A DNA stretch of 64,000 nt, taken from contig JBKHCL010000002.1 of the NCBI GenBank assembly GCA_046541875.1, forward strand, positions 3,811 through 67,810, in the 5' to 3' direction. The number at the start of each line of letters is the position of its first letter. Position 1 is the first letter of the stretch. A program made the position numbers and the translations under genes. Positions 20,005-33,798 of this stretch are shown in pieces. The stretch comes from Phycisphaerae bacterium (lineage in GTDB: Bacteria > Planctomycetota > Phycisphaerae > SM23-33). Under the pieces are notes generated by a model. The model ran no database searches. It saw nothing but the letters and a program-made list of their open reading frames with translations, and was not told the origin of the DNA.

Positions 20005-20628
20005 ATGAGCGATGAGCGACCCACACCGTATCGCTGGGTGGTCCGCCTGGCTGTCCTGGCCGGGGTGTGCTACCTCGCGTGGATGCTGATGGTCTGGTTC
20101 GGGCGGAACCTCACCGAGACCGACCGCGCCACCGAGGCCCGCAAGCACACCTGGTTGGTTCTCGTCGATGCCAATACCGCCCGATCCGACGCCACCGAAA
20201 TCGACGTGCGTCGGCCTCGCGGTGAGTCGCTGGCAAACGTCGCCGCCGCCCTGGAACCGCTCTGGGACGCCAACGAGCCCGGCCGGGTCCGCGTGGTACT
20301 CAAGGCCTGGCAGCAGGACCCCAACGCGATCCGTCACAGCGCTTGGGGGGAAGGGGTGAAAATGCTCGACGCGCTCTGCGCCCCGCCCGCCTGGAGCATT
20401 CAGCCCGCCGGCGGACAGCTGCGCGTGAGCGTCCCGGCCGATCCGAACGTGCCGGCCGTCGGTTACCCCGCCGACGTCTCGGGTCGATCGGCGTTGGCTG
20501 CGAGGGTCTACGATACCGTGCTGGAATCGCACCGGGCACTGGCGCCGAACTTCGCCCGAAACGCCCCGCAGGTGCCCAACCCCAAGAACCGCGAAATGGA
20601 CCGCATCCCCGAGCCCCTGAGCCCATGA
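20005..20628 (+). CDS. Hypothetical membrane-anchored protein
   Basis: N-terminal TM helix, no recognisable family, contains D-P-N/D-A-N motifs. Its stop overlaps the selB start. Confidence 0.45.
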   Translation: MSDERPTPYRWVVRLAVLAGVCYLAWMLMVWFGRNLTETDRATEARKHTWLVLVDANTARSDATEIDVRRPRGESLANVAAALEPLWDANEPGRVRVVLKAWQQDPNAIRHSAWGEGVKMLDALCAPPAWSIQPAGGQLRVSVPADPNVPAVGYPADVSGRSALAARVYDTVLESHRALAPNFARNAPQVPNPKNREMDRIPEPLSP

Positions 20629-22577
20629 GCGAGCGACGCAACATCATGCTCGGAACCGCCGGCCACGTCGACCACGGGAAAACGGCGCTGGTCAAGCTGC
20701 TCACCGGCTGTGAGACCGATCGGCTGGACGCCGAAAAGCAGCGGGGGCTCACCATCGAACTGGGGTTCGCCCCCTGCACCATGAGCGACCGCCGCATCGT
20801 GGGCATCGTGGACGTACCAGGGCACGTGGACTTCATCCGCAACATGGTCGCCGGGGCCCACGGCGTGGATGTGGTCATTTTCGTGATCGCCGCGGACGAT
20901 TCGGTCATGCCGCAGACCCGCGAGCACATGGACCTGCTGACCATCCTCGGCTGCGAGGCGGGACTGGTCGCCCTGACGAAGATCGACCTGATCGACGCTG
21001 AACTGCGCGAGATGCTCCTCTCCGAGGTGCGGAGCTTCACGGCCGAGACGTTCCTGGCGGACGCCCCGATCTGCCCGGTGAGCAACGTCACCGGGGAGGG
21101 ATTCGACGAGTTCTTCGCCGCCCTGAACCGTGTCGTTGACGCGGCGCAGCCTCGCGCGGGCGGCGGGCGATTCCGCCTGTGGTCGGAACGAAGTTTCAGC
21201 GTGAAGGGGTTCGGCACGGTCGCCACGGGAATCCCGTCGGCCGGCGAGGTCTGCCGGGGCGATACGCTGGAGGTCCTTCCCGCCGGGCGGACGGCGCGCG
21301 TCCGGTCGCTGGAGGTGTATGGCGAATCAAGCTCGGTTGGCAGAGGTGGCGAGTGCGTGGCGCTGAATCTTTCCGATATTGACGCCGACCACGTCGGACG
21401 CGGAACCGTGCTCTGCCGGAGCGGCGCCTGCCGCACCGTCACCATGTGCGAGGGCGAGCTGACGCTGCTGGACCGCCTGCCCAGTCCGCTGCCCGATAAC
21501 ACTGAGGTGCATCTCCACGTGGGCACCGCCGAGGTGATGGCGAAAGTGGCGATTCTCGACGGCGGAAAGCACCTCTCTCCCGGCGAGTCGCGCCTGGTTC
21601 AGCTGCGATTGCGCGACCCGCTACCCCTCGCCGCCGGCGACCGGTTCGCCATTCGTGGAACGCTGGCGGGCCTGGCCGGCGGACGCATGACCACGCTCGG
21701 CGGCGGGCGAGTGCTGGACGTCAGCGACATCAAGCTGCGGCGCAATCGGCCCTGGACCATCCAGAAACTCTCGGCCCGGCGCGACGCGCTGGACGACCCG
21801 GGCCGATGGACGGCACGAATCCTGCGCGAATCACCCGACCCGATCTCGCCTGATGAGTTGGCCCGGCGAGCGAACCTCCAGCCGACGGTGGTCGCTGAGA
21901 TACTCGCGGACCTCGTCGGCCGGGAGGAGGCGATCGAACTGGGCGGGCGGTTCCTGCACGCCGAGGCGGTGAGGGAGCTGGCCGAGAGTGTTATCGAGGT
22001 GCTTGGTGAGTTCCACGACGCCAACCCACTTCGGCAGGGGCTCGCGCCGGAGGAGTTGGCAAGCGGGCTGGGCGCATCGGACCAGACGCTGGCTGCGGCG
22101 CTGGATTGGCTGGGACGTCGAGGCCGACTGGAGAAGCGCGGGAATGTGCTCGCCCTGCAGGGTCACGCAGCCGCCCTGAGCGAGGCCGACATCGCCGTGT
22201 GCGAGCGGATTCGTGAAACGCTGAAGGCGTCCGGTGTCACCCCGCCGCTGCCGGCAGAGCTGGCCGACCAGGTGAACCTGGACGAGACGACGTTCGATAA
22301 GTTCGTTACGCTGTTGGCCGACAACGGCGATGTCCTTCGGCTGGATGAGAAAGTTCTGGTGCATCCCTCGGCCGTCGAGCGTGCCAAGGCCGTCGCGCTG
22401 GAACTGTTCCACGCCGCCAGCGGATTCACGACCACGGAGTTCCGCGACGCGTTGGGCGTCTCGCGCAAGTACGCCGTGCCGCTGCTGGACTACCTCGACA
22501 GCATCAAGTGGACGGTGCGGTCGGCCAACCGCCGCACGCCGGGGTCGGCTGCCCGGGAGAAGTTGCCCCGACACTGA
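20625..22577 (+). CDS. selB: Selenocysteine-specific elongation factor SelB
   Basis: GTP-binding G1 AGHVDHGKT, G3 DVPGH and NKID-like TKID. Multiple C-terminal winged-helix domains. Starts at Met95 of the track ORF. Confidence 0.88.
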   Translation: MSERRNIMLGTAGHVDHGKTALVKLLTGCETDRLDAEKQRGLTIELGFAPCTMSDRRIVGIVDVPGHVDFIRNMVAGAHGVDVVIFVIAADDSVMPQTREHMDLLTILGCEAGLVALTKIDLIDAELREMLLSEVRSFTAETFLADAPICPVSNVTGEGFDEFFAALNRVVDAAQPRAGGGRFRLWSERSFSVKGFGTVATGIPSAGEVCRGDTLEVLPAGRTARVRSLEVYGESSSVGRGGECVALNLSDIDADHVGRGTVLCRSGACRTVTMCEGELTLLDRLPSPLPDNTEVHLHVGTAEVMAKVAILDGGKHLSPGESRLVQLRLRDPLPLAAGDRFAIRGTLAGLAGGRMTTLGGGRVLDVSDIKLRRNRPWTIQKLSARRDALDDPGRWTARILRESPDPISPDELARRANLQPTVVAEILADLVGREEAIELGGRFLHAEAVRELAESVIEVLGEFHDANPLRQGLAPEELASGLGASDQTLAAALDWLGRRGRLEKRGNVLALQGHAAALSEADIAVCERIRETLKASGVTPPLPAELADQVNLDETTFDKFVTLLADNGDVLRLDEKVLVHPSAVERAKAVALELFHAASGFTTTEFRDALGVSRKYAVPLLDYLDSIKWTVRSANRRTPGSAAREKLPRH

Positions 22578-22615
22578 GAGCCTTCCCGCCCCATGGGCCC
22601 GACAGGAGAAACACC

Positions 22616-24280
22616 ATGCCGCAGAACGTAGACCTCGCCAAACGCCGACGCATCATGCAGCGATCGATGAAGCTCGGCCATTGCATCTGCGATCCGAAAC
22701 GACCGTGTCCGTGCAATGTCTTCACACAGGATGGCTACTGCCCCTGCGCCGGGGAACGACCCGACACCGCGCCGGCCGACAACGTGAAGCTCACCGAGTT
22801 GGTCCACAATGCCGGCTGTGCGAGCAAAATCGCGCCGGCGGACCTGGAGACCGTGCTCAAACGCCTCCCACCGGTATCCGACCCGGCTGTGCTTTGCGGC
22901 CTGCCCGCCGGGGACGACGCCGGCGTCTATCGCCTGCCCGACGGGACCTGCCTGGTGCAGACCGTCGACGTGATGACGCCGGTGGTCGACGACGCCGAGA
23001 CGTTCGGGCGGATCTGCGCGGCCAATTGCCTCTCGGACATTTACGCGATGGGCGGAACGCCGCTGACCGCGCTGAGCATTCTGGCGTTCCCCTCCGAGAC
23101 GCAGGACGGCGAGCTGATGTACCGCATGATGAAGGGCGCGATGGACGTGCTGGGCGAGGCGGGGGTGGCCCTGATCGGCGGGCACAGCGTGAAAGACGAG
23201 GAAATCAAGCTCGGGTTCGCGATCACCGGCACGATCGACGCCGAGGCGGCTGTCTCGCACGGCAGCGCGAAGGTGGGCGATGTGCTCGTGCTCACCAAAC
23301 CGCTCGGGGCCGGCGTGCTGAACTTCTGCCGCCAGATCGGGCGGAATGCTCCGGGGCTGGCCGAGGCGGAGGCGTCGATGGCTACGCTGAACCGCGACGC
23401 GGCGGAGGCGATGAACGCGGTGGGCGTCTCGGCGGCGACGGACGTGACGGGCTTCGGGCTTTACGGGCACCTGATCAGCATGGCGCGTCATTCGGGGGTG
23501 ACCGCACAGGTCTGGGCCGATCGGCTGGGGGCGTTTCCCGGGGCGATCGAGGCTTTGGAGGACGACGTGGTCCCCGGGGCGATCGAGCGGAATCGTGAGT
23601 TCGTAGCCGACGATATCGCCATCGCCTCCGACGTCGCAGCCGGTGCGGGATTGCTGGGCTTCGACGCCCAGACCTCCGGCGGATTGCTGATGGCTGTGCC
23701 CGAGGCGAAACTGGCGGACCTGCGCGAGCAGTTGCAGCGGCGGAATACCCCGGCGATGGTCATCGGAAAGGTGGTGGCCGAGTCCGATGGCAGGATCGTC
23801 GTGACGACGGCGAAGGAGGCGGTCGAGTCGGCTGGGCTCAGGGACATCGTGGATACACCCGGAGGTGAGCAGGGCCGGAAGGCGAGTTGCGGCGGCGCCC
23901 AATCCGGCGAGAGTTCCTGCTGCCCGGGGAGCGAACCCGACGAGGCGAGCGGCGCGTGCTGCTCGGCCGGCAGGGAGGCGGGTACGGCCGGCGACTCGCT
24001 CAAGGCGTTCGGCGCGCTGATGCGATCGGCAGGGGCCGGCGGTACGATCGACGAGACGGCCAAGGAACTGATCACCTTCGCGCTGGTGCTGCTGAGCAAG
24101 TGCGAACCGTGCTTCGAGGCCCATTGGGCGAAGGCGGCGAACATGGGCATCTCCCGGGAGCAACTGGACGAAGCCGCCTGGTGCGCCATCGCCATGGGCG
24201 GGGCGCCGGTGCGGATGTTCTACGAGCAGATGAAATCCCGGGTCGACGCCGACCACGTGCCGGGCAGGGGATGCTGCTGA
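22616..24280 (+). CDS. selD: Selenide, water dikinase SelD fused to N-terminal Cys-rich segment and C-terminal AhpD-like domain
   Basis: SelD core with HNAGCASKI active-site loop. Cys codon TGT, not TGA. The N-terminal 50 aa carry HCICDPKRPCPCNV...YCPC. The C-terminal 150 aa have SCC...CC plus CEPCFEAHW, an AhpD/CMD-like CxxC helix. Confidence 0.85.
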   Translation: MPQNVDLAKRRRIMQRSMKLGHCICDPKRPCPCNVFTQDGYCPCAGERPDTAPADNVKLTELVHNAGCASKIAPADLETVLKRLPPVSDPAVLCGLPAGDDAGVYRLPDGTCLVQTVDVMTPVVDDAETFGRICAANCLSDIYAMGGTPLTALSILAFPSETQDGELMYRMMKGAMDVLGEAGVALIGGHSVKDEEIKLGFAITGTIDAEAAVSHGSAKVGDVLVLTKPLGAGVLNFCRQIGRNAPGLAEAEASMATLNRDAAEAMNAVGVSAATDVTGFGLYGHLISMARHSGVTAQVWADRLGAFPGAIEALEDDVVPGAIERNREFVADDIAIASDVAAGAGLLGFDAQTSGGLLMAVPEAKLADLREQLQRRNTPAMVIGKVVAESDGRIVVTTAKEAVESAGLRDIVDTPGGEQGRKASCGGAQSGESSCCPGSEPDEASGACCSAGREAGTAGDSLKAFGALMRSAGAGGTIDETAKELITFALVLLSKCEPCFEAHWAKAANMGISREQLDEAAWCAIAMGGAPVRMFYEQMKSRVDADHVPGRGCC

Positions 24281-24400: not shown

Positions 24401-24484
24401 GCGGCCGTGGCGGAATTGGCAGACGCGCAGGCTTCAGGTGCCTGTTCCCTTCGGGGAGTGAAGGTTCGACTCCTTTCGGCCGCA
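24401..24484 (+). tRNA. tRNA-Leu (anticodon CAG)
   Basis: Cloverleaf read by eye. Acceptor GCGGCCG/CGGCCGC, D-arm GCGGAATTGGCAGACGC (near-identical to E. coli tRNA-Leu), anticodon stem CAGGC/GCCTG with loop TTCAGGT, long variable arm TCCC-TTCG-GGGA, T-loop TTCGACT. Confidence 0.85.
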
Positions 24485-24611: not shown

Positions 24612-25064
24612 ATGTCCCCCATGGGCGAATCGCTGAAGCGTCAATTCGGCCAGGCGTTCGACGTGCTGGAGGCGGCGGTTCGATTGCTGGATGACTCGCA
24701 GTGGCGGCAGGGCGGGTCGCCCTACGACGGACCGGCCCGGGGGACGCTGCACGCACTGCAGGCAGCCGAGTACTACACGCATGGCCGGAGCGAGGTGTTT
24801 CGCTGGCAAGGCAAGGGCGTGTGGGAAATGGACAGCCACGAGTTGCCCGACCAGCAGGAAATGCTGGATTACCTCGCGGCAGTGCGATCGATCAACGACG
24901 AATGGATCGCTTCGCTCGACCGGGGACCTCTTGCTGTCGGCGGAGAACAGGCCGGACAGGCGCTGGACCGGGCCGTCTACGCCGTTCGCCATCTCCAACA
25001 CCACACCGGCGAGGTCTGCGCCTGGATGAAGCAGTTCGGCCATCCGCAGGAAACGTGGGTCTGA
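24612..25064 (+). CDS. DinB/YfiT-like (DinB_2 superfamily) protein
   Basis: 150 aa, His-containing four-helix-bundle-like pattern. Weak family assignment. Confidence 0.45.
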   Translation: MSPMGESLKRQFGQAFDVLEAAVRLLDDSQWRQGGSPYDGPARGTLHALQAAEYYTHGRSEVFRWQGKGVWEMDSHELPDQQEMLDYLAAVRSINDEWIASLDRGPLAVGGEQAGQALDRAVYAVRHLQHHTGEVCAWMKQFGHPQETWV

Positions 25065-25242
25065 GCGGTCCGGCAGGCGAAGCGTGCAGCATCTATAAGA
25101 TTCATTTATCGCATCGGCGGGGGGCTCTCGACGTTGGACCTCAAAAGGGGTAGTAAGATAAAGGCGATTCGGCTACACTGGGGGCTGTTGGTCGATAAGA
25201 ACTCCTTGTAAGCCGGAGCCACTGCCCTTGCATACCGATGTG

Positions 25243-26115
25243 ATGAAGACCTTCTGCGACCTCGTGGACGCCGGGAGTTTCTCCAAGGCCGCCGAGATGA
25301 ATTTCATTTCGCAGTCGGCGGTTTCGCAGCAGTTGGCGAAGCTGGAGCGCGAGCTGTCGGTGCAGTTGATATCGCGGGGCGGCGGGTTGGTCGCTCCCAC
25401 CGAGGCCGGCCGGGCGTTTTATGACGGCTGCAAGGACATCATCCGCCGCCACGAGCAGCTTCTGGGCGAGGTGCGGGCCGCTGCCGACGCCGTTCGCGGC
25501 GTGCTGCGGGTGGGCACGATCTATTCGGTGGGCTTCTACCTGCTGGACCCGTACGTGCGCGAGTTTCTCCAGGCCCACGCGGAGGTCAACCTGCACGTGG
25601 AGTACACCCGCTGGAACCGCATCAACGCAGCCATCGTCTCCGGCGAGATGGACCTGGGAATCGTCGCCTGCCCCGAGAAGCAGCGATCCATCGAGATCCT
25701 CCCGCTGACCAGCGAAGAGATGGTTGCGGTCTTCGCGCCGGGCCATCCGCTGGCAGGGCGAGACTGCATTGGCGTCGAAGAGCTCGAAGGCGAGACGGTG
25801 GTGGCCTTCGAGGCGGGCATCCCGACGCGCGTGTTTATCGACAAGCTCCTCAGGAAGCACGGCGTGACGGTGAACATCGAGATGGAGTTCGACAACATCG
25901 AGCTGCTCAAGCGGGCCCTGGAGGTCGGCTCGGGGGTGGGCATCCTGCCGGTCGGGAACATCCAGCGGGAGGCCGACCGGGGCGACCTGGCGTTCGCACG
26001 CATCGACGGCGATGAGTGGCGACGCCCGATCGCGATACTCCGGCGCCGCGGGAAGGCGGCCAGTCCCGCCGAGCGCATGTTTCTCTCGGTGCTGCGCGAA
26101 GGGCACGAGGCGTAG
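25243..26115 (+). CDS. LysR-family transcriptional regulator
   Basis: N-terminal HTH (FSKAAEMNFISQSAVSQQLAKLE) and C-terminal substrate-binding domain. ATG at Met6 of the track ORF. Confidence 0.88.
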   Translation: MKTFCDLVDAGSFSKAAEMNFISQSAVSQQLAKLERELSVQLISRGGGLVAPTEAGRAFYDGCKDIIRRHEQLLGEVRAAADAVRGVLRVGTIYSVGFYLLDPYVREFLQAHAEVNLHVEYTRWNRINAAIVSGEMDLGIVACPEKQRSIEILPLTSEEMVAVFAPGHPLAGRDCIGVEELEGETVVAFEAGIPTRVFIDKLLRKHGVTVNIEMEFDNIELLKRALEVGSGVGILPVGNIQREADRGDLAFARIDGDEWRRPIAILRRRGKAASPAERMFLSVLREGHEA

Positions 26116-26194: not shown

Positions 26195-26356
26195 TCAGTC
26201 GACCGGCGAGAACTCGCTCTTGTCGGCGCCGCACTCGGGGCAGACCCAGTCGTCGGGAATGTCCTCGAAGGCGGTTCCGGGTTCCACGCCATTGTCGGGG
26301 TCGCCCACGGCCGGGTCGTACTCCCAGCCGCACAGATCGCAAACGTACTTCTTCAT
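26195..26356 (-). CDS. Rubredoxin (53 aa; absent from the ORF track because it is under 60 aa)
   Basis: Minus-strand translation [53 protein letters not shown], with canonical CxxCG...CPxCG rubredoxin motifs. Coordinates verified against flanking track ORFs. Confidence 0.85.
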
Positions 26357-26491
26357 GTTGGCACCTTTCTTTCGGTTGGAGTCAAAACGTCGTTGCTGCT
26401 GAATGTTGGTTACCGGGTCAGGCTGTAAAAGTCAACGCAGCCGTCGATCGTTGCACGCGTCAACACGGGCAGGATGCCCGGGCTGTGTCTC

Positions 26492-26998
26492 TCACGGCGT
26501 TTCCGGTGGTGTATCGGTGGTTTCTTCGGGCTGGATTCCCAGCAGCTCGACCAGATCGGCCGGCTCGATGCGGTATCGGCTGCCCCGGCCCTGGAAGAAG
26601 CCGTGCTCGCGCACCAGGTGCACCGAGAGAGGCGTGTATCGCTGAACGACCTCGCCGGTTTTGGGGTCGGTCAGCTCGACCTCGCCCTTACGGAAGACCT
26701 TGCCCCCCCAAGGGGACGGGATCTTTCCCATCGACTCGCGATAGGTCGCCACCAGCCCGCGCCCGCCGGCCGTCGTGACGGTCACGGGGGCGCCGAACGT
26801 GTTGACCGCCGCGCTGAGAATGCGTTCCATCTCGTCGGCGATCCGGTCTTTCGTGATACCGAGATGGTCCAGTTCGTGGGCGTCGTTCTCGATGATCTCG
26901 TGCAGTGTGCGGTGATCGTGTCCGAGAAAGCCCTCGCGGCAGAGAACGCCCGGGGCCATCCGTTTCATCAGTCGGTCTTCGTCGGGGAGTTTTTTCAT
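26492..26998 (-). CDS. Hypothetical conserved protein between nqrF and rubredoxin
   Basis: 168 aa, no TM. His/Glu-rich N-terminal half (HDHRTLHEIIENDAHELDH). No recognisable family. Confidence 0.5.
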   Translation of the reverse strand: MKKLPDEDRLMKRMAPGVLCREGFLGHDHRTLHEIIENDAHELDHLGITKDRIADEMERILSAAVNTFGAPVTVTTAGGRGLVATYRESMGKIPSPWGGKVFRKGEVELTDPKTGEVVQRYTPLSVHLVREHGFFQGRGSRYRIEPADLVELLGIQPEETTDTPPETP

Positions 26999-27013
26999 GC
27001 GGAGGCTCCGGGG

Positions 27014-28126
27014 CTAGGCGAACTTGTCGTAGAAGCGGCGGTCTTCGATGATGCCCTTGCCATCGAGCACTTCGGCTGCGGCGTCGATCATGCCCGGCGA
27101 GCCGCAGAGGTACGCCTCCATCTCGGCCCCGTCCTTCACGCGGCGGTCGAGCACATCGGTAATCAGCCCGGTCTCGCCGCTCCAGTCGTCCGGCGGGTCC
27201 TGGCAGGACAGCGCGGGCACGTACTCGAACCACTCCAGTTCGTCGGCCAGGGCGTAGAGTTCCTCGGTGAGGAACATGTCACGCGGGTTGACCGCGCCGA
27301 AGAAGTAGGTGCATTTCTTGCGGAGGTCGTGTTCCTTCATGTGGCGAATCATCGACCAGAACGGGGCCATACCCGATCCGCCGGCGATCCAGACCATTTC
27401 GCGATCGGTCTCCTGCAGGCGGAAATCGCCGTAGGGGCCCGAGAGGGTCACCTCGTCGCCCTCGGAGACGTGCTCGAACACCCACGTCGTGCAGATGCCC
27501 CCGGGCACGAGGCGGATCATCAGTTCGATGTAGCCGTTGTCCGATGGTTTGGACGAAATCGAGTACGCCCGGTAGACCGGCTCGGGGTTGTCCCCGTAGG
27601 CGGGGGCTTCGAGCTGCATGTATTGGCCGGCGACGAAGTCGATGGTCTCCGGCTCGATCAGCTTGATGCGCAGCTCCTTGATATCGTGCGTCAGGTCGCG
27701 GATCTGCTCGACCCGGCCGCGGAATTCCTTGATCGAGAACAGCTCCTCGGGGATCTCGATGGCCATGTCGTTGCGGACCTTGACCTGGCAGGAGATCCGG
27801 ATGTTGTTCTCTTTCTCGGTTTCGTCCAGGAGAGGGTCTTCGGTGGGTACGACCGGGCCGCCGCCGTCAAGAATCTTGCACTTGCAGTATGCGCAGGTCC
27901 CCCGGCCGCCACAGGCGGAGGGAATGAACAACCCCTCGCCCTTGAGCGATGCCAGCAGACTTTCGCCGCCCTCGACCTGCAGTTCCTTCTCGCCGTTGTT
28001 GATCGAAATCGTGCAGATCCCGTAGTTGACGAGATACTTCTCGGCCAGCAGCAACAGCGCCGCCAGCACGGTGGACAGTACGCAGGCCGTCAGGGCCGCC
28101 AGAAGTACGCCGGTTACCAGGTTCAT
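27014..28126 (-). CDS. nqrF: Na+-translocating NADH:quinone oxidoreductase subunit F-like (2Fe-2S ferredoxin/FAD/NADH)
   Basis: N-terminal TM, plant-type 2Fe-2S motif CGGRGTCAYCKC, RxYS FAD motif (YRAYSISS), NAD-binding GGSGMAPF. Confidence 0.88.
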   Translation of the reverse strand: MNLVTGVLLAALTACVLSTVLAALLLLAEKYLVNYGICTISINNGEKELQVEGGESLLASLKGEGLFIPSACGGRGTCAYCKCKILDGGGPVVPTEDPLLDETEKENNIRISCQVKVRNDMAIEIPEELFSIKEFRGRVEQIRDLTHDIKELRIKLIEPETIDFVAGQYMQLEAPAYGDNPEPVYRAYSISSKPSDNGYIELMIRLVPGGICTTWVFEHVSEGDEVTLSGPYGDFRLQETDREMVWIAGGSGMAPFWSMIRHMKEHDLRKKCTYFFGAVNPRDMFLTEELYALADELEWFEYVPALSCQDPPDDWSGETGLITDVLDRRVKDGAEMEAYLCGSPGMIDAAAEVLDGKGIIEDRRFYDKFA

Positions 28127-28139
28127 CGAGTCGCCTCGC

Positions 28140-28805
28140 TCACAGTTTGATCATTCCCTGGAAGACGGTGAACGCCATGGCCATGATGCCGGTGATAATC
28201 AGCGTAATCCCCGGGCCCTCCAGCGCGGCGGGAATCTTCGCCTTGCTCAGCCGTTGGCGAATGCCCGCCATGATGACGATCGCCATGAACCAGCCCAGTC
28301 CGGAACCGAGCCCGAAGACGAAGACCTCCGGCAGGCCGTACCCTTTGGAGAGCACGTCGTTGACCATGAACAGGCTGGCCCCGAGGATCGCGCAGTTGAC
28401 GGTGATCAGCGGCAGGAAGATGCCCAGCGAGTAGTACAGCGGTGTCGAAATCCGCTCGATGAGCATCTCCATCAGCTGCACGAACGCGGCGATGACCACG
28501 ATGAACAGGATCAGCTTGAGGCTCTCCGCCGGGACGCCATAGGGTTCGAGCGGCTGAAGCACATACACGTACAACAGGTAGTTCAGCACGCAGGTGCACG
28601 TCGTGACGAACAGCACCGCCAGCCCCATTCCCACCGACGCCTTGAGCTGTCGGCTGATCGAGAGGAACGGGCACATTCCCAGAAACCGCGTCAGCAGGAT
28701 GTTGTTGGTCAGCGAGGCGGAAACCAGGATGAGCACCATTCCCGCGGTGAAGCCCACATCGGGCGTGGCGCCCTGGGCCTGCATCTGGGCGAGCAGGGGG
28801 GTCAT
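28140..28805 (-). CDS. nqrE: NqrE/RnfA-family membrane subunit
   Basis: Six-TM NqrDE/RnfAE family with conserved Cys in TM segments. Operon position between nqrD and nqrF. Confidence 0.85.
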   Translation of the reverse strand: MTPLLAQMQAQGATPDVGFTAGMVLILVSASLTNNILLTRFLGMCPFLSISRQLKASVGMGLAVLFVTTCTCVLNYLLYVYVLQPLEPYGVPAESLKLILFIVVIAAFVQLMEMLIERISTPLYYSLGIFLPLITVNCAILGASLFMVNDVLSKGYGLPEVFVFGLGSGLGWFMAIVIMAGIRQRLSKAKIPAALEGPGITLIITGIMAMAFTVFQGMIKL

Positions 28806-29482
28806 GCGGCACCTCCTTCAGCGGCTGCTTCGCGTTTGAGGGAATACCACCGGGCCACCCAAACGGCGATCGCCAGCAGGAAAAACGCTCCGGGGGGCAT
28901 GACCATGATCGTCCAATGTCGCCACGCCGTCTCGTGCACGCCCGGCTGGTACGCCCGGAGGAAGTCGAAGGTGATCTGCCACGACGTGCCCTTCAGCAGC
29001 GTTCCGAACCCGAGGACCTCGCGGACGATCGCGATGCTCATGAGCACCAGGCTGTAGCCCAGCCCGGCCCCGAGCCCGTCGGTGAGGGCGGGGAGGGGTT
29101 TGTTCTTGTTGGCGAACGCTTCCAGCCGACCCAGGACGATGCAGTTGGTGATGATCAGCCCGACGTAGGCGGCGATGTCCTTGTGGGTATCGAAGAAGAA
29201 CACCCGGAAGACGATGTCCACCACGATGACGAAGACGGCGATGATGAGCACCTGCACCATGATGCGGACGCGGTTGGGCGTGAAGTTTCGCAGCAGGCTG
29301 ACGGTGAGCGAGGACATCGTCGTCGCCCAGATGAGCCCGACGCACATCAGCGCGGTGTTGAACACGAGGTTCGTCACCGCCAGGGCCGAGCAGATGCCCA
29401 GCACCTGCCGGAAGATGGGGTTCTCCGCCCAGAACTGGGTCTCCAGCGCCTCTCGGGCGGTGAGTGTATCCTGCGGGGGCAT
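28802..29482 (-). CDS. nqrD: NqrD/RnfE-family membrane subunit
   Basis: NqrDE/RnfAE family membrane protein. ATGA overlaps on both sides. Confidence 0.85.
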   Translation of the reverse strand: MPPQDTLTAREALETQFWAENPIFRQVLGICSALAVTNLVFNTALMCVGLIWATTMSSLTVSLLRNFTPNRVRIMVQVLIIAVFVIVVDIVFRVFFFDTHKDIAAYVGLIITNCIVLGRLEAFANKNKPLPALTDGLGAGLGYSLVLMSIAIVREVLGFGTLLKGTSWQITFDFLRAYQPGVHETAWRHWTIMVMPPGAFFLLAIAVWVARWYSLKREAAAEGGAA

Positions 29483-30246
29483 TACACGCCTCCTTCCACG
29501 TCAGGAGCGTTGGCGTCGGGCGACGATGCGCTCTTGAGCAGGCCTTTGGCCCGGGCGGCCCGGCGGAACTGCTCGATGCGGGTATTCACGAACGCCTCGA
29601 CGGCGGTGCTGGTTCCGGTGGCGCCGGTGATGGCGTCCACGTGCCTGCCGTAGGCCGATTCGCCTTCATCCGGGCTGGACTTGGTGATGTAGATGATCTG
29701 GTCGGCCTCGGTGGGCGGTGAGATATCCAACCCCTCGAACTGCTCGGCGAAGGTCTCCTCGGTGATGCGTCCGCCCAGCCCGGGCGTTTCCTGGTGGGCC
29801 AGGAACACCGCGCCCAGCGACTTGTTCATGTCCGGGGCGACTGCGAGGATCCCGTCGATCCGCGCCCAGAAGCCGATCCCCCAGATGGGCATCGCGTAGC
29901 CGATGAGCTTGCCGCCCGCGTCGGGGTCGGTGTCGTAGGCCTGGTACGTCTGCAGCCGGGGGTCGGTGGGGTGGTTGAAGTTCACGCCGGATTCCGGGTC
30001 GATCAGGTCTCCCTCGACCTTGCGAATGTGGGTGTTGTAGAGCTCCTCGATGCGGGCATCGGACGGTTCGGGCGTCTCGGCCAGTTCGAAAACGCTCACC
30101 AGCGCACTCATCCGCGCCAGTTGCTCGTTGCGTTTGACGATATGCTGCGTCGAGGCGTGCAGCGTCATGATGGCCGCGGTGAACAGCGCGGAAACGACGG
30201 CGGCGTAGAGGATGACGTAGGTGGGATTCTTGGTATTCAGTTTCAT
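29482..30246 (-). CDS. nqrC: NqrC (FMN-binding) subunit
   Basis: N-terminal TM. Covalent-FMN attachment motif ITGATGTS near the C-terminus. Confidence 0.85.
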   Translation of the reverse strand: MKLNTKNPTYVILYAAVVSALFTAAIMTLHASTQHIVKRNEQLARMSALVSVFELAETPEPSDARIEELYNTHIRKVEGDLIDPESGVNFNHPTDPRLQTYQAYDTDPDAGGKLIGYAMPIWGIGFWARIDGILAVAPDMNKSLGAVFLAHQETPGLGGRITEETFAEQFEGLDISPPTEADQIIYITKSSPDEGESAYGRHVDAITGATGTSTAVEAFVNTRIEQFRRAARAKGLLKSASSPDANAPDVEGGV

Positions 30247-31379
30247 TGGTCACCCTTCCCGGCGGCGGCCCGGGCTTTTCGCCGGTCCTCCCAGGAGCCC
30301 ACGCCCAGTTCGATCAGCGGGGCGAGCATGTTGCCCAGCAGGATGCTGAACGTCGCGGCGGCGATGAACGGGCCCTTCCAGCGGAGGAAGACCAGCAGGA
30401 AGCCGATGACGAACGCGTAGATCAGCCGGGCCGAGTTCTTTCGCGGCGCGGAGACCGGTTCGGTCACCATGAAGACCATCGCGTACAGCGTGGTCCCGCT
30501 GAGCACCTGCCACGCCAGCGGGGGCACCTGTCCGACGTCGGTGTACCCCAGTCCCTGGCGGAACAGCAAACTGGCGGCCGTCACGCCGATGAGCCCGCCG
30601 AGCATGAGTCGCCAACTGGCGGTTTTCGTCACCAGCAGGTAAATCGCACACAGCAGGATGATCACGCCGCACCCCTCTCCGATACTGCCGGCCGCGAGGA
30701 TCTCTTCGCTGCCGCTGGGCGTCTGGAAGATCCCGCCGATGGTCCCCCACGCCATGTCCCACAGCGTGGCGCCCTGGCCGTTGTTGACGATGGCTTCGCT
30801 GCCGTACTTGGTGCCCACGAACATGGGGCTGGCCTGGGTGACCGCGTCGGCGACGGTCTCGCCGCCGGCCTGGAGATACTCGGGCAACTGCTTGAGCGAC
30901 TTGAACGACCAGTGTGCGAACCCGCCGGGAAAGCCCTGGAACGCGGGCACGAACCGCCCGGTGAGGTCCTGCGGGAAGCAGATGTACACGAACGCGCGTC
31001 CGACGATGGCGGGGTTTACCCAGTTTCGCCCGAACCCGCCGTAGACTTCCTTGCCGAACAGGACCGCGACAGCCGCCCCCACACCTGCCACCCACAGCGG
31101 TGTGGTGGCCGGCAGCGAGAGCGAATACAGCAGAATCGTCACGAACAGGGCGGTGGACACGGGTTGACCGCGATGTTGCGCGGAGACGTACTCCACCGCG
31201 AAGCCCACCAGCAGGCAGAACGCCACGATCGCCGCCACGACCCACCCGAAGAAGTAGATCCCGGTGAGCATCACGGGGATCAGGGCGTAGATCATGCGCA
31301 GCATCTGGGGCTGCTTCATGAGAAGCTTTTTGGGTTTCTTCTTTTTGGCGGCGGATCCGCCGGATGCTTGTGCGCTCAT
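30243..31379 (-). CDS. nqrB: NqrB/RnfD-family membrane subunit
   Basis: Polytopic protein with GQGATLW FMN-attachment-like motif and C-terminal VTEPVSAP...LFANL-like region resembling NqrB. Confidence 0.82.
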   Translation of the reverse strand: MSAQASGGSAAKKKKPKKLLMKQPQMLRMIYALIPVMLTGIYFFGWVVAAIVAFCLLVGFAVEYVSAQHRGQPVSTALFVTILLYSLSLPATTPLWVAGVGAAVAVLFGKEVYGGFGRNWVNPAIVGRAFVYICFPQDLTGRFVPAFQGFPGGFAHWSFKSLKQLPEYLQAGGETVADAVTQASPMFVGTKYGSEAIVNNGQGATLWDMAWGTIGGIFQTPSGSEEILAAGSIGEGCGVIILLCAIYLLVTKTASWRLMLGGLIGVTAASLLFRQGLGYTDVGQVPPLAWQVLSGTTLYAMVFMVTEPVSAPRKNSARLIYAFVIGFLLVFLRWKGPFIAAATFSILLGNMLAPLIELGVGSWEDRRKARAAAGKGDQ

Positions 31380-31476
31380 GCGGTCTCGTTTGTCCCAAGG
31401 CGTGTCGTTGCAGTGCGTCCATCAGCCATCAAGGCGGGCATCCCCTCGCCCGTGTGGATCCGTGGCGGACGGGCCG

Positions 31477-32694
31477 TTACTTCACTTCGGCGAGTTGGGC
31501 GTGCAATCTTTCGCCGATTGTCTTTCCCAGCTCCCGGCAGGAGGCCAATTCTTCGTTGGTGGGCACATATCGGCAGCGGACCGGGTCGGCCACCACGTCC
31601 ACGTCCATCTCTTCCAGCAGGGCGGTGAGGAGCTTGGGCGCTTCGCCGCTCCAGCCGAACGACCCGAAAGCGGCGCCGATGAGGTTCTTCGGCTTGAGCC
31701 CTTTGAGATAGGTCATGCAGTCGGCCAGCGTGGGGAAGATGTTGTTGTTCAATGTGGGCGAGCCAACGATCAGCGCGCCGGCTTCGAGAACCTCGGTCGC
31801 CACGTCGCTTCGGTGTGATCCGTTGAGGGGCATCAGGCGAACGGCGATGTCCTTCTCGCCCAGCCCCTCTGCCACCAGGCGGGCCATCTTCGCGGTGCTC
31901 TGCCACATCGTGTCGTAGACGATGACGGCCTTGTCGGTCTTCTCCTGGGCACTCCAGCGGGCGTAGCTGTCCAGGACGTAATCGATGTCCGAGGCGTTGC
32001 GGTAGATCGGGCCATGGTCGGGAGCGACGATCTCGATCTGTTCGCGCAGGGGCCCGAGCTTGTCCAACGCCTTGGAAATGAACGGCGCCAGGTGCATCAG
32101 GATGTTCGCGTAGTACTTGGTCAACTCGTACTGCAGCACGGACGATTCGATCTGGTCGGCGAACCGCTCATTGCCGGCCAGGTGCATCCCGAAGGCGTCC
32201 TGGCTGAACAGGAGCTTGTCCTCCTTCAGGAAGCTGACCATGCTGTCGGGCCAGTGGCACATGCGGGTTTCGTAGAACGCCAGGTGCACGCCGCCCAGGT
32301 CGATCTCCTGCCCGTCTTCGACCACGGTGACGTCCTCGATGATGTGATGCTCCGAGAGCGCGCGGGCGCCCTGCCTCGAGGCGTAAACCGTCGAGACGCC
32401 CAACTCCCCAGCCAGTTCGCCCACCAGTCCGCTGTGGTCCATCTCGGAGTGGTTGGATACAATCACATCGATTTCGCCGGGATCGGCGACCGAGGCGATG
32501 CGCTCGAGCATCTCGCTCTTGAAGGGTGCCTTGACCGTGTCGATCAGTGTGAGCTTGTCCGCTTTGACGAGAAACGCGTTGTACGTGCTGCCACGGCTGG
32601 TCGCATAGCCGTGGAAGTCCCGCAATGCCCAGTCGATCGCGCCGACCCACCAGACGTGCTCACTGACCTTTATCGCTTTGTACGTCTCAGCCAT
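31477..32694 (-). CDS. Flavodiiron protein (class A FDP; O2/NO reductase, ROO/FprA-like)
   Basis: Metallo-beta-lactamase-like diiron motif HSEMDH (FDP-type HxExDH). C-terminal flavodoxin domain VIVYDTMWQSTAKMA. 405 aa. Confidence 0.88.
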   Translation of the reverse strand: MAETYKAIKVSEHVWWVGAIDWALRDFHGYATSRGSTYNAFLVKADKLTLIDTVKAPFKSEMLERIASVADPGEIDVIVSNHSEMDHSGLVGELAGELGVSTVYASRQGARALSEHHIIEDVTVVEDGQEIDLGGVHLAFYETRMCHWPDSMVSFLKEDKLLFSQDAFGMHLAGNERFADQIESSVLQYELTKYYANILMHLAPFISKALDKLGPLREQIEIVAPDHGPIYRNASDIDYVLDSYARWSAQEKTDKAVIVYDTMWQSTAKMARLVAEGLGEKDIAVRLMPLNGSHRSDVATEVLEAGALIVGSPTLNNNIFPTLADCMTYLKGLKPKNLIGAAFGSFGWSGEAPKLLTALLEEMDVDVVADPVRCRYVPTNEELASCRELGKTIGERLHAQLAEVK

Positions 32695-32751
32695 CCGCTT
32701 GGTCCTCGCTGTCGGCCGACCCGGCCCATGACCGATCGGCTCGACGGGTTG

Positions 32752-33270
32752 TCACTTCTCTTCATCGCGCAACTGCATCAGGAGGTTCTTGAGGCTCGTT
32801 GCGTGCCCCATCTCCTGGTGGATGATGTCGTCGATTTTCGCTCGCTGGTCGGCGTTGGGCACGTATTCCTTGAGCCCGACGTAGAAGAGGATCGAGTCGC
32901 TCTCCATCTCGACGGCCCTGGCGATCACGTCGGTCAGGCGCTCCTGGCCGGTCCACGTTTTGGCGGGTCCGCCGGCCGGGTCGAACAGGCGATCGCTCGC
33001 CAGCATTTCCAGGTAGCTGCGGACGGACTCGTCGGGCTGGGCCGCCTGGTCGCCCTCGGCGGCTGCGCTTTGGCGGGCCAGCCAGTTCTCCTTCATCGCG
33101 GAGAACACCTGGAGATGATCCTCTTCCATCACCGCCAGCTGGCGGAGAAACTGCTCAGCCTTGGGGTCGCTCGCCAACTCCGCTGAGCGACGATAGAACT
33201 CCACACCATTGCTCTCCACCTGGCAGGCCAGGTCCAGCAGGTCCGCAGCGCTCATCTCATTGACAGCCAT
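32752..33270 (-). CDS. Ferritin-like diiron-carboxylate protein (rubrerythrin/ferritin-like superfamily)
   Basis: Two E..EEDH/E..H helices (VMEEDHLQVF, HQEMGH). 172 aa. Confidence 0.55.
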   Translation of the reverse strand: MAVNEMSAADLLDLACQVESNGVEFYRRSAELASDPKAEQFLRQLAVMEEDHLQVFSAMKENWLARQSAAAEGDQAAQPDESVRSYLEMLASDRLFDPAGGPAKTWTGQERLTDVIARAVEMESDSILFYVGLKEYVPNADQRAKIDDIIHQEMGHATSLKNLLMQLRDEEK

Positions 33271-33276
33271 CCGTGG

Positions 33277-33798
33277 TTACTCTCCTTCGCCTTCAGCCGG
33301 CGGCGGGGTGAAGCTTCGCTGTCCCAGCTCACGATCGATCATGAACAGCGCGCCGGGCGCTTCCTTGCTGAGCTTGAGCTGCTGGACGATCTGGTCCACG
33401 GAGGCCTCTTCCTCGACCTGTTCGTCGGTGAACCACTGCAACATCGACTCGCAGGCGTAGTCCTTCTGCTCGCGGGCGAGGGTCACCAGGTCGTCGATCC
33501 GCTGGCTGATGTACTGCTCGTGCTTGTAGGCAGCCTCGAAGGCGGCCAGCGGCGAGTCCCACTCGGTCTGAGGCGCCTCGATGGCGGTGAGCTTCACGGT
33601 CCCACCACGCTCGTTGATGTGGTGGAAGAACTTCATCGCGTGGACCATCTCCTCCTGGGCCTGGGCACGCATCCACGCAGCCGCCCCGGAGAGATTCATC
33701 GTCTCAAACCACGCCGACATGCTCCAGTACAGGTAGGCCGAGAACGTCTCAGCGTTGATCTGCTCATTGAATGCCTTCTCAATCGGCTCCTTCATCAT
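33277..33798 (-). CDS. Non-heme ferritin
   Basis: MMKEPIEKAFNEQINAETFSAYLYWSMSAW... is a canonical bacterial ferritin N-terminus with ferroxidase Glu/His residues. The start is chosen at the first ATG after an AAAGGGA RBS. Confidence 0.85.
   Translation of the reverse strand: MMKEPIEKAFNEQINAETFSAYLYWSMSAWFETMNLSGAAAWMRAQAQEEMVHAMKFFHHINERGGTVKLTAIEAPQTEWDSPLAAFEAAYKHEQYISQRIDDLVTLAREQKDYACESMLQWFTDEQVEEEASVDQIVQQLKLSKEAPGALFMIDRELGQRSFTPPPAEGEGE

What the first reader, a model, noticed from the sequence alone, without database searches (positions are those of the whole stretch)
22616..24280. Tripartite SelD: Cys-rich N-terminal extension + selenophosphate synthetase core (Cys, not Sec) + C-terminal AhpD/CMD-like CxxC domain
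The selD gene encodes 554 aa instead of about 345. The first 50 aa carry HCICDPKRPCPCNV-x8-YCPC, with five or more Cys in CxC/CPC spacing. The last 150 aa begin with a Cys cluster (SCGGAQSGESSCCPG...GACCS) followed by an AhpD-like helix with CEPCFEAHW (CxxC), and the protein ends in GRGCC. The catalytic loop HNAGCASKI uses a TGT Cys codon. Fusing a thiol or selenol redox/delivery module to SelD could channel selenide, or protect it, on the way to selenophosphate synthesis. I do not recognise this domain combination as a described SelD architecture.
Basis: partly seen in the sequence, partly recalled or inferred. Interest (0 to 1): 0.55.

Follow-up and report, generated by a model that had tools for sequence, protein, structure and literature searches.

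The report
SelD with built-in thiol modules
This is a real, intact selenophosphate synthetase gene carrying an unclassified six-cysteine module at its front and a flexibly tethered AhpD-type CxxC domain at its back; the layout is common in uncultured Planctomycetota and Verrucomicrobiota, I found no paper describing it, and it may be a built-in system for handing selenium to the enzyme.

Summary
Window 22616-24280 (+) is one uninterrupted 554-aa ORF directly after selB. It has four parts: an N-terminal six-Cys module with no Pfam, NCBIfam or PDB match; a complete Cys-type SelD core; a disordered ~60-aa linker with vicinal CC dyads; and a CMD/AhpD-fold domain with E-x11-CxxC-x3-H, ending in CC.

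It is not an assembly artefact or a one-off. Three independent assemblies encode the identical protein. At least 179 clusters (90% identity) and 68 GTDB species genomes from several phyla, all MAGs, share the architecture, usually next to selA/selB. All six N-terminal Cys, the catalytic Cys and the CxxC are invariant. None uses Sec.

A sister clade (named Kiritimatiellia) has the N-module and SelD but no CMD. The searched literature lists only N-terminal SelD fusions (Ndh, NifS, methyltransferase).

The best-supported mechanism is inferred, not shown: a thiol relay (CxxC, CC dyads, possibly the N-module) that captures and reduces selenium and passes it to Cys68. It parallels NifS-SelD, Se/S-carrier-SelD, Trx-dependent selenite assimilation and PRDX6-to-SEPHS2 delivery.

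Verdict: new variant of a known kind, of moderate interest.

The parts
20625..22577 (+). selB (selenocysteine-specific elongation factor, 650 aa), immediately upstream and on the same strand
   Evidence: TIGR00475 selB scores 303.5 bits against a cutoff of 242. The gene call and Pfam SelB domains on the identical contigs L001 and L002 agree.
22604..22609 (+). Shine-Dalgarno-like AGGAGA, 6 nt upstream of the selD ATG
   Evidence: Read directly from the sequence.
22616..24280 (+). Complete tripartite selD ORF (554 aa plus the TGA stop)
   Evidence: The protein is 100% identical to P0001, which is found on 3 independent assemblies.
22616..22777 (+). N-terminal module (aa 1-54): a basic helix (aa 7-20) followed by the six-Cys motif GHC-x-C-x5-CPC-x8-CPC (Cys23, 25, 31, 33, 42, 44)
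   Evidence: All six Cys are invariant in 120 clusters. AF2 pLDDT is 80-95. There is no Pfam hit at E<=10, no NCBIfam model covers it, and there is no PDB profile hit at E<=10.
22778..23806 (+). Selenophosphate synthetase (SelD) core, aa 55-397
22805..22831 (+). Catalytic glycine-rich loop HNAGCASKI, with Cys68 (TGT at 22817-22819) and Lys71
   Evidence: Aligns to the E. coli loop HGAGCGCKI. G67, C68, A69, S70 and K71 are invariant. No relative examined has Sec here.
23807..23986 (+). Disordered low-complexity linker (aa 398-457) with vicinal Cys dyads: C435-C436 (23918-23923) and C448-C449 (23957-23962), plus C425
   Evidence: pLDDT is below 50 for aa 414-453. C435/C436 are 93% conserved. Linker length varies from 30 to 127 aa, yet a CC dyad is present in 109 of 117 family members and 58 of 60 genome loci.
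23987..24250 (+). CMD/AhpD-fold five-helix domain (aa 458-545) with E484-x11-C496-E-P-C499-x3-H503 (CxxC at 24101-24112)
24251..24277 (+). Flexible C-terminal tail ending in the vicinal pair Cys553-Cys554 (24272-24277)
   Evidence: pLDDT is below 50 for aa 548-554. A CC tail is present in 85 of 120 clusters and 30 of 70 genome loci. Members without the tail end at genuine stop codons.

Best explanation
The gene encodes this bacterium's working selenophosphate synthetase for selenocysteine synthesis. It is a Cys-type SelD that has gained two thiol-rich accessories. The first is an N-terminal six-Cys module of unknown fold class, attached about 24 residues before the mobile catalytic loop. It probably binds a metal or Fe-S cluster, or binds selenium directly. 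The second is a C-terminal AhpD-type CxxC thiol-disulfide domain, held on a roughly 60-residue disordered tether that itself carries vicinal Cys-Cys dyads and, in most members, ends in a Cys-Cys tail.

Proposed mechanism (inferred). The CxxC domain and the CC dyads capture selenium at the selenite, selenotrisulfide or perselenide level from cellular thiols or donors. They supply the two reducing equivalents needed to reach the selenide level and become a disulfide. The tether then swings the bound selenium to Cys68 in the SelD loop, where ATP converts it to selenophosphate without release of free toxic selenide. An external reductant then re-reduces the disulfide.

What is shown: the ORF is intact, the SelD core is complete, the C-terminal domain has the CMD fold with the AhpD catalytic signature, the linker is disordered, the cysteines are strictly conserved, the family is widespread, and the gene sits in sel operons.

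What is inferred: selenium binding, selenium reduction, hand-off to Cys68, and any role for the N-module.

For: Role in the Sec pathway: selB-selD in this window, selA-selB-selD in L004 and L087, and selA/selB near selD in L005. In the flank census of 82 loci, selB lies upstream 52 times and selA 35 times.

CMD/AhpD domain. E-x11-CxxC-x3-H is present in 118 of 120 clusters.

Tether: pLDDT below 50, length 30-127 aa, yet a CC dyad is almost always kept. That is the pattern expected of a functional swinging arm rather than a spacer.

Selection: six N-terminal Cys plus the CxxC are invariant down to 41% identity (P0122, P0125, P0129, P0133, P0136).

Recurrent theme: other SelD lineages carry NifS, Se_S_carrier (DUF3343) or a genuine FTR catalytic domain at the same N-terminal position, and Ndh-SelD is known (PMC2398784, PMC4561486). 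This points to repeated selection for attaching selenium-delivery or reducing modules to SelD.

All tripartite members are Cys-type. In mammals, Cys-substituted SEPHS2 could not compensate for loss of the selenide carrier PRDX6, whereas Sec-SEPHS2 could (PMC11327102). This suggests Cys-type enzymes depend more on a carrier.

A CxxC protein (TrxA) performs the first step of selenite assimilation for bacterial selenoprotein synthesis through a Trx-Se intermediate (PMC8538045).

From general knowledge, not tested here: MerA and ArsD use a tethered CxxC domain and vicinal CC pairs to pass Hg(II) or As(III) to a catalytic site.
Against: There is no biochemical evidence of any kind. No model coordinates or PAE were available, so I could not test whether the CxxC or the CC tail can reach Cys68.

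The CMD domain is dispensable in a large sister clade (at least 58 clusters of about 398 aa, named Kiritimatiellia) that keeps the N-module and sits in selA-selB-selD operons.

The CC tail is missing in about 30-55% of members.

In the deepest clusters the Glu, or the His, of the AhpD signature is replaced.

The CMD domain is no closer to selenoprotein AhpD families than to the generic AhpD core model (31.6 against 33.8 bits).

The N-module has no detectable homologue of known function.
Confidence: 0.45

Rival explanations
1. Redox maintenance rather than selenium delivery. The AhpD-type CxxC domain, helped by the CC dyads, acts as a built-in disulfide or sulfenate reductase. It keeps the exposed catalytic Cys68 and the six N-terminal cysteines reduced, or repairs them after oxidation, in an oxygen-sensitive anaerobe. 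It never binds selenium itself.
For: The AhpD signature E-x11-CxxC-x3-H belongs to a thiol-disulfide oxidoreductase. The organism is an anaerobe with a large O2-stress island a few kb downstream: rubredoxin, flavodiiron protein, rubrerythrin, desulfoferrodoxin and AhpC. Cys-type SelD has an exposed reactive thiol. The N-only clade shows that SelD with the N-module works without the CMD, which fits an auxiliary protective role.
Against: It does not explain why vicinal CC dyads are conserved in a disordered tether and tail, since such dyads are typical soft-metal or metalloid ligands. Cells already have thioredoxin-type systems for general repair. Other SelD fusions (NifS, Se_S_carrier) are selenium donors or carriers, not repair enzymes.
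Confidence: 0.25
2. The Cys-rich parts are metal sites with a structural, electron-transfer or regulatory role. The N-module binds Zn or an Fe-S cluster, possibly acting like an FTR-type [4Fe-4S]/disulfide centre fed by ferredoxin. The CC dyads bind metal. The CMD domain is an independent antioxidant or regulatory activity that was fused because it is co-expressed.
For: Three CxC motifs recall the CPC/CPC/CHC set of the FTR catalytic subunit. Some members have CHC as the third motif. One SelD lineage (P0251) carries a genuine FeThRed_B domain at the same N-terminal position (51.3 bits). The N-module is predicted as a compact, confident unit (pLDDT 80-95). It persists without the CMD domain.
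Confidence: 0.2
3. Artefact: two or three adjacent genes were joined by a sequencing, assembly or frameshift error, or an N-terminal extension was mis-called.
For: High-GC MAG sequence produces many long spurious ORFs. One relative (L037) does have the CMD part separated from the SelD ORF.
Against: The identical 554-aa protein appears in three independent assemblies. At least 179 clusters and 68 species genomes have the same uninterrupted architecture. An SD-like site precedes the ATG. The six-Cys module is invariant, which would not hold for untranslated sequence.
Confidence: 0.01

Closest known systems
Canonical bacterial SelD (selenide, water dikinase; E. coli 3u0o, A. aeolicus 2yye)
   Same: The core (aa 55-397) has the same fold, Gly-rich loop with Cys and Lys, Asp ligands and sel-operon context.
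   Different: It carries about 210 extra residues: the N-terminal six-Cys module, the CC-dyad linker and the C-terminal CMD/AhpD domain.
Described SelD fusions: Ndh(PNDR)-SelD, NifS-SelD, methyltransferase-SelD (PMC2398784, PMC4561486)
   Same: A Cys-type SelD is joined to a redox or selenium-supplying module, and the organisms decode Sec. The presumed logic is the same: coupling selenium supply or reduction to activation.
   Different: The partner domains differ. The CMD/AhpD partner sits at the C-terminus, whereas Mariotti et al. state that every fusion they found was N-terminal. TIGR04369 (oxidoreductase/SelD fusion) scores only 122.7 bits against a cutoff of 700. Here there are two accessories at once.
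Small single-domain CMD/AhpD-core proteins (TM1620 1p8c, Lpg0406 5dik, TIGR00778 ahpD_dom)
   Same: They share the five-helix fold, with the CxxC at a helix N-terminus and the Glu and His of the AhpD proton relay.
   Different: This domain is not free-standing. It is tethered to SelD. It is not an orthologue of M. tuberculosis-type AhpD (TIGR00777 scores 13.3 bits against 192). No AhpC partner is implied.
C-terminal AhpD-domain fusions to metalloid methyltransferases (NCBIfam MduS NF045649, ArsM/AhpD NF041537) and AhpD-like selenoproteins (CxxU)
   Same: An AhpD-core domain is placed C-terminal to an enzyme acting on a soft metalloid. The alignments cover aa 457-546.
   Different: Those are selenoproteins with CxxU. 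Here both positions are TGC Cys in every member. The scores are far below those models' cutoffs, so this is a resemblance, not membership.
Selenium carriers to selenophosphate synthetase: PRDX6 to SEPHS2 (PMC11327102), TrxA-Se intermediate (PMC8538045), DUF3343/Se_S_carrier (PMC5322559)
   Same: The proposed function is the same: a reactive Cys or CxxC protein from a peroxide or thiol redox family binds selenium and feeds SelD/SEPHS2.
   Different: Those are separate proteins of different folds. Here the candidate carrier is covalently fused. No selenium binding has been shown.
Ferredoxin:thioredoxin reductase catalytic subunit (PF02943)
   Same: It has three CxC motifs with an x8 gap before the last one, and a true FeThRed_B-SelD fusion exists (P0251).
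   Different: No detectable homology. The module is half the size, and the first spacing is x5 against x13-16.

Membership tests
SelD (selenide, water dikinase; TIGR00476) | Score above the curated equivalog cutoff | tested here: met
   322.8 bits against a cutoff of 125, covering aa 58-364. Note that PRK00943 scores 276.4, below its cutoff of 299.
SelD (selenide, water dikinase; TIGR00476) | Gly-rich N-terminal loop with a catalytic Cys or Sec and a Lys (E. coli Cys17 and Lys20) | tested here: met
   HNAGC68ASK71 aligns to E. coli HGAGCGCK and is invariant in 117 sequences.
SelD (selenide, water dikinase; TIGR00476) | AIRS/PurM-superfamily fold with conserved Asp metal and ATP ligands | tested here: met
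SelD (selenide, water dikinase; TIGR00476) | Genomic association with the Sec machinery | tested here: met
   selB lies directly upstream here. In the 82-locus flank census, selB lies upstream 52 times and selA 35 times.
SelD (selenide, water dikinase; TIGR00476) | ATP-dependent selenophosphate synthesis | not testable with these tools
   Needs an enzyme assay or complementation of an E. coli selD mutant.
CMD / AhpD-core domain (PF02627, TIGR00778) | HMM score above the gathering or curated cutoff | tested here: met
   PF02627 scores 41.5 bits (44.8 for the domain alone) against 23. TIGR00778 scores 33.8 against 27.8.
CMD / AhpD-core domain (PF02627, TIGR00778) | All-alpha CMD fold | tested here: met
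CMD / AhpD-core domain (PF02627, TIGR00778) | AhpD catalytic signature E-x11-C-x-x-C-x3-H | tested here: met
   E484...C496-E-P-C499...H503. The signature is present in 118 of 120 clusters and 60 of 70 genome loci. Only the CxxC is universal in the deepest clusters.
AhpD sensu stricto (TIGR00777, partner of AhpC) | Score above the subfamily cutoff; two-domain AhpD of about 177 aa | tested here: not met
   13.3 bits against a cutoff of 191.95. This is a single ~90-aa core domain.
AhpD-like selenoproteins (CxxU; MduS NF045649, ArsM_AhpD NF041537, GSU3128 NF041047) | In-frame TGA (Sec) in the redox motif and a score above the model cutoff | tested here: not met
   Both positions are TGC. Scores of 31.6, 28.2 and 19.3 bits fall far below cutoffs of 380, 510 and 110. 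No U was found in any relative.
Oxidoreductase/SelD fusion (TIGR04369; Ndh-SelD) | N-terminal pyridine-nucleotide disulfide oxidoreductase domain and a CxxC in the SelD loop | tested here: not met
   122.7 bits against a cutoff of 700, matching only the SelD half. The loop is G-C-A-S-K, not CxxC.
Ferredoxin:thioredoxin reductase catalytic domain (PF02943) for the N-module | Sequence or profile similarity to FeThRed_B; CPC...CPC...CHC ligating a [4Fe-4S] cluster plus a disulfide | tested here: not met
   No Pfam hit at E<=10. No PDB profile hit at E<=10. hhalign probability is 2.8% against Synechocystis FTR and 8% against the FTR domain of P0251. Cluster binding is not testable here.

The most novel reading that the evidence does not exclude
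The protein is a self-contained selenium assimilation machine. The six-Cys N-module is a new type of metal, Fe-S or selenium-binding fold sitting on the catalytic loop. Together with the CC-dyad swinging arm and the AhpD-type CxxC it forms an intramolecular relay that takes selenium from selenite or thiol-bound Se(0/II), reduces it, and delivers enzyme-bound selenide to Cys68 without any free selenide or separate carrier protein. That would make it the first bacterial case in which the long-sought selenium delivery step to SelD is physically encoded in the enzyme.
Probability: 0.25. Interest if true: 0.75.

Novelty: new variant of a known kind. Interest (0 to 1): 0.5.

Why it matters
How reactive, toxic selenide reaches selenophosphate synthetase is an acknowledged open question. 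The 2024 PRDX6 paper (PMC11327102) states that carrier proteins had been hypothesised but not yet identified.

Gene fusions are strong natural hints about partners. Here a whole clade of Cys-type SelDs, widespread in uncultured Planctomycetota, Verrucomicrobiota, Lentisphaerota and other phyla, has a CxxC domain and vicinal-Cys arm covalently attached, plus an unclassified six-Cys module next to the catalytic loop.

That gives a single polypeptide in which selenium capture, reduction and activation can be dissected by truncation and Cys-to-Ser mutants. It also suggests that free-standing CMD/AhpD-like proteins, including the very abundant AhpD-like selenoproteins of unknown role, might act in selenium or metalloid handling.

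It further extends the catalogue of SelD fusions: the first C-terminal one, a new N-terminal module, and, noticed in passing, an FTR-SelD fusion and Se_S_carrier-SelD fusions. It also flags that automated annotation hides this diversity under the plain name 'SelD'.

Tried and rejected
1. FTR homology of the N-module. The motif resemblance (three CxC) led me to test it. Pfam gave no hit at E<=10. The profile against PDB gave no hit. hhalign gave 2.8% against the verified Synechocystis FTR core and 8% against the FTR domain of P0251. I rejected it as homology and kept it only as a positional and functional analogy.

2. Single-sequence AF2 of aa 1-62 gave pLDDT 51, which is unusable. No separate fold search of the N-module was therefore possible.

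3. Fold search against afdb50 was unavailable.

4. Hidden Sec in members lacking the CC tail. I checked read-through of their stop codons. L004 ends in TAA and L005 in TGA followed by further stops, so I rejected this. No Sec was seen at the catalytic position or in the CxxC in the loci and clusters checked.

5. Rosetta-stone check for a separate CMD gene next to the SelDs that have only the N-module. None was found. Only L037 shows a split or frameshifted CMD.

6. A homology search with the N-terminus of P0251, meant to build an FTR-SelD profile, found nothing.

7. The flank census for a conserved extra partner gene found only selA and selB, a Fer4_5 membrane protein (about 20 loci), an unknown ~400-aa protein (35 upstream occurrences) and HGD-D (about 10 loci). 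None is clearly linked to the fusion.

8. selA and tRNA-Sec in the window: absent.

9. SelD+CMD without the N-module. P0126 probably has a mis-called or truncated start, because its first residues match the sequence just after the N-module of P0127. P0151 is a degenerate paralogue. I therefore could not establish an intact form lacking the N-module but carrying the CMD domain.
Full report
1. OBSERVATION

Window 22616-24280 (+) is a single ORF of 554 codons (ATG ... TGA). An AGGAGA site sits 6 nt upstream.
- The N-terminal motif is GHCICDPKRPCPCNVFTQDGYCPC. It has six Cys, and the spacing is CxC-x5-CPC-x8-CPC.
- The catalytic loop is HNAGCASKI, with Cys68 encoded by TGT at 22817-22819.
- The linker contains SCGGAQSGESSCCPG...GACCS.
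- The C-terminal domain contains CEPCFEAHW, with both Cys encoded by TGC.
- The protein ends in GRGCC.

The same 554-aa protein is encoded on three independent assemblies: two NCBI MAGs and one Logan run. A sequencing frameshift joining separate genes is therefore excluded.

2. WHAT THE PARTS ARE

SelD core. Pfam finds AIRS (aa 99-206), AIRS_C (aa 219-396) and CMD (aa 461-532; 41.5 bits against a gathering cutoff of 23). NCBIfam calls aa 58-364 a SelD equivalog (TIGR00476, 322.8 bits against 125) and aa 477-526 an AhpD core domain (TIGR00778, 33.8 bits against 27.8). Against the PDB, aa 55-396 align to E. coli SelD (E 1.8e-58) and aa 462-537 to the CMD-family protein Lpg0406, deposited as 'AhpD' (5dik; E 4.8e-7).

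Structure model. An AlphaFold2 model built on a 117-sequence family alignment has mean pLDDT 87.8 and pTM 0.75.
- The N-terminal 60 residues are confident (pLDDT 80-95), with a helix at aa 7-20 followed by Cys-rich loops.
- The SelD core is above 90.
- Residues 414-453 and 548-554 are below 50, so they are predicted disordered.
- Residues 458-545 form five helices at pLDDT 91-98.

AhpD signature. The domain carries the full AhpD signature E484-x11-C496-x2-C499-x3-H503. It is nevertheless not an AhpD orthologue (TIGR00777 scores 13.3 bits against 192). It is also not a member of the Sec-containing AhpD fusion families that it weakly resembles (MduS, ArsM/AhpD, GSU3128).

N-module. The N-terminal module has no match in Pfam at E<=10. 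No NCBIfam model covers it. A 30-sequence profile of it finds nothing in the PDB at E<=10.

3. A FAMILY, NOT A CURIOSITY

Abundance.
- All 120 best clusters (90% identity) returned for the protein have CMD+AIRS+AIRS_C. They are 514-616 aa long and share 57-100% identity. Where a source names them, the name is 'selenide, water dikinase SelD', from Planctomycetota, Phycisphaerae and Armatimonadota MAGs.
- A second search seeded from a relative adds 59 more tripartite clusters.
- At 50% clustering the architecture persists in at least six deep clusters, down to 41% identity.
- A scan of 185,579 species genomes with the N-module profile found it in 187 genomes. All 80 fetched loci were MAGs, labelled Planctomycetota, Verrucomicrobiota, Lentisphaerae, Armatimonadota, Myxococcota, Spirochaetota, Fibrobacteres, Firestonebacteria, Acidobacteriota and 'Deltaproteobacteria'.
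- Among those 80 loci, all of the roughly 70 complete ORFs carry the CMD domain. Only L037 has it split off from the SelD ORF.

Conservation.
- Cys23, 25, 31, 33, 42, 44, 68, 496 and 499 are invariant.
- The linker varies from 30 to 127 residues and is hardly alignable. It still keeps at least one vicinal CC dyad in 109 of 117 family members and 58 of 60 genome loci, and up to 8 CC dyads follow the SelD core in one protein (L076).
- A terminal CC is present in 85 of 120 clusters and 30 of 70 loci. Members without the tail end at genuine stop codons, not at a hidden Sec codon.
- No member has Sec at the catalytic site or in the CxxC.

4. CONTEXT

- The gene follows selB directly (TIGR00475, 303.5 bits).
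- Relatives show selA-selB-selD or selD-x-selA-selB.
- In the flank census of 82 loci, selB lies upstream 52 times and selA 35 times.
- This is therefore these organisms' SelD for selenocysteine synthesis, not a stray paralogue.
- No selA or tRNA-Sec lies within this 64-kb window.
- The host is evidently an anaerobe: rubredoxin, Rnf/Nqr subunits, a flavodiiron protein, rubrerythrin, desulfoferrodoxin and AhpC lie just downstream.

5. MODULARITY

- A sister clade of about 398-aa proteins has the six-Cys module and SelD but no linker, no CC dyads and no CMD domain. It has at least 58 clusters, and the members that carry a name are labelled Kiritimatiellia. It still sits in selA-selB-selD operons with no CMD gene nearby.
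- The N-module is thus the older feature that defines the clade. The CC linker and CMD domain come and go together as one accessory unit.
- I could not establish an intact form with the CMD domain but no N-module. P0126 looks N-terminally mis-called. P0151 is a degenerate paralogue (GFASK and SEPC).

6. WHAT EVOLUTION KEEPS ATTACHING TO SelD

- Among the other representatives I found NifS-SelD (P0143), Se_S_carrier/DUF3343-SelD (P0243, P0181) and one genuine ferredoxin:thioredoxin-reductase catalytic domain fused N-terminally to SelD (P0251; PF02943, 51.3 bits; CPC-x13-CPC-x12-CEC followed by a CPGC active loop).
- Ndh-SelD is documented in the literature (PMC2398784).
- All of these are selenium donors, selenium carriers or disulfide-reducing modules.
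- The FTR-SelD fusion made me retest whether the six-Cys module is a minimal FTR. hhalign gave probabilities of 2.8% and 8%, so homology is not supported. Only the position and the three CxC motifs are shared.

7. MECHANISM (INFERRED)

- SelD needs selenium at the selenide level. Free selenide is reactive and toxic, and carrier proteins have long been postulated.
- PRDX6 was recently shown to carry selenium as a Cys perselenide to SEPHS2. Notably, Cys-substituted SEPHS2 could not compensate for PRDX6 loss, whereas the Sec enzyme could (PMC11327102).
- In bacteria, the thioredoxin CxxC reacts with selenite through a Trx-Se intermediate and is needed for selenoprotein synthesis (PMC8538045).
- Against that background, the most economical reading of a Cys-type SelD with an AhpD-type CxxC on a disordered, CC-studded tether is a built-in thiol relay. 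The relay would capture selenium, reduce it and present it to Cys68.
- From general knowledge, not tested here, the design resembles mercuric reductase (a tethered NmerA CxxC domain and a C-terminal CC pair feeding the catalytic site) and ArsD (vicinal CC pairs feeding ArsA).
- The N-module begins 24 residues before the mobile catalytic loop. It could be a metal or Fe-S site, or the final selenium acceptor.
- I give this relay model a probability of about 0.45. The main rivals are a pure redox-repair role for the CMD domain (0.25) and a metal, structural or electron-transfer role with no selenium binding (0.2).
- No coordinates or PAE were available, so reachability of the active site could not be checked.

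8. COMPARISON WITH WHAT IS KNOWN, AND NOVELTY

- Zhang et al. 2008 list Ndh-SelD and NifS-SelD.
- Mariotti et al. 2015 surveyed 8263 prokaryotic genomes for SelD fusions and extensions. They state that in all cases the extension is N-terminal. Neither their text nor their supplements mention AhpD or CMD.
- Lin et al. 2015 and later reviews and surveys (2021, 2022, 2026) do not mention it either.
- No NCBIfam model exists for the fused form.
- The architecture is therefore abundant in databases but, as far as I could search, undescribed.
- I rate it a new variant of a known kind: SelD fusion proteins, with a new partner, a new (C-terminal) position and an additional unclassified N-terminal module.
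- Interest is moderate (0.5). It is not categorically new, but it offers a tractable single-polypeptide system for the open question of selenium delivery to SelD.

Noticed in passing
P0251 (450 aa; not in the window): A genuine ferredoxin:thioredoxin reductase catalytic domain (PF02943, 51.3 bits; CPC-x13-CPC-x12-CEC) is fused N-terminally to a SelD whose active loop is CPGCASK. It appears rare: a search with its N-terminus found no relatives. I found no description of an FTR-SelD fusion in the papers I searched.
   Followed up: partly
P0243, P0181, P0215, P0143, P0242 (representatives): Further SelD fusions turned up. P0243 and P0181 are Se_S_carrier (PF11823/DUF3343)-SelD by Pfam, and P0215 has a similar N-terminus that I did not scan. 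P0143 is NifS(Aminotran_5)-SelD. P0242 is a SelD with an unannotated C-terminal extension of about 150 aa.
   Followed up: partly
P0132, P0271-P0310 and others; loci L087 and L088: A sister clade of about 398-aa SelDs, named Kiritimatiellia where a name is given, keeps the six-Cys N-module but has no linker, CC dyads or CMD domain. P0132 sits in selA-selB-selD operons in L087 and L088. It shows that the N-module is independent of the CMD add-on.
   Followed up: yes
P0151 (499 aa): A degenerate SelD-CMD paralogue without the N-module. The catalytic Cys is replaced (GFASK) and the CxxC is reduced to SEPC, so it is probably catalytically dead or repurposed.
   Followed up: no
L037 5345-5611: In one Planctomycetota MAG the CMD domain lies just after a 471-aa SelD ORF, in a separate reading segment. 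This is either a frameshift or assembly error, or a natural split of the fusion.
   Followed up: partly
window 25228-26115 (+): A LysR-family regulator lies two genes downstream of selD. Its best NCBIfam hit is the selenium-metabolism-associated LysR (NF040786), but at 149.9 bits it is below the cutoff of 250 and barely ahead of CynR. Membership of the 'LysR_Se' group of Lin et al. 2015 is therefore unresolved.
   Followed up: partly
window 24401-24484 (+): tRNA-Leu(CAG) lies about 120 nt after the selD stop codon. There is no tRNA-Sec and no selA anywhere in the 64-kb window, although selB and selD are adjacent.
   Followed up: yes
window about 26195-34465 (-): An anaerobe oxygen-stress and redox island: rubredoxin, an NqrF-like Fer2/FAD/NAD protein, Rnf/Nqr subunits, a flavodiiron protein, rubrerythrin, ferritin, desulfoferrodoxin and AhpC. 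The annotation comes from gene calls on the identical contig L001.
   Followed up: no
window 24612-25064 (+) and 20005-20628 (+): Two small ORFs flank the selB-selD pair. The 150-aa downstream ORF has weak, sub-threshold DinB-family similarity. The 207-aa upstream ORF has no family match and overlaps the selB start by 4 nt.
   Followed up: partly
loci L006-L085, flanks of selD: Recurrent neighbours of the tripartite selD besides selA and selB: a membrane Fer4_5 polyferredoxin-like protein, antisense and downstream (about 20 loci); an unannotated protein of about 400 aa upstream (35 occurrences; its representative has a hydrophobic N-terminus suggesting a signal peptide); HGD-D (about 10 loci; an HGD-sel association is also noted in PMC5322559); and an AhpC/TSA-like thioredoxin-fold protein, apparently with a signal peptide, downstream (12 loci).
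   Followed up: partly
window 22616-24280, aa 134 and 138: Two extra Cys inside the SelD core motif ICAANCLSD are invariant in the close family (at least 57% identity). They are absent from E. coli SelD and from the deeper tripartite clusters. Their role is unknown.
   Followed up: no
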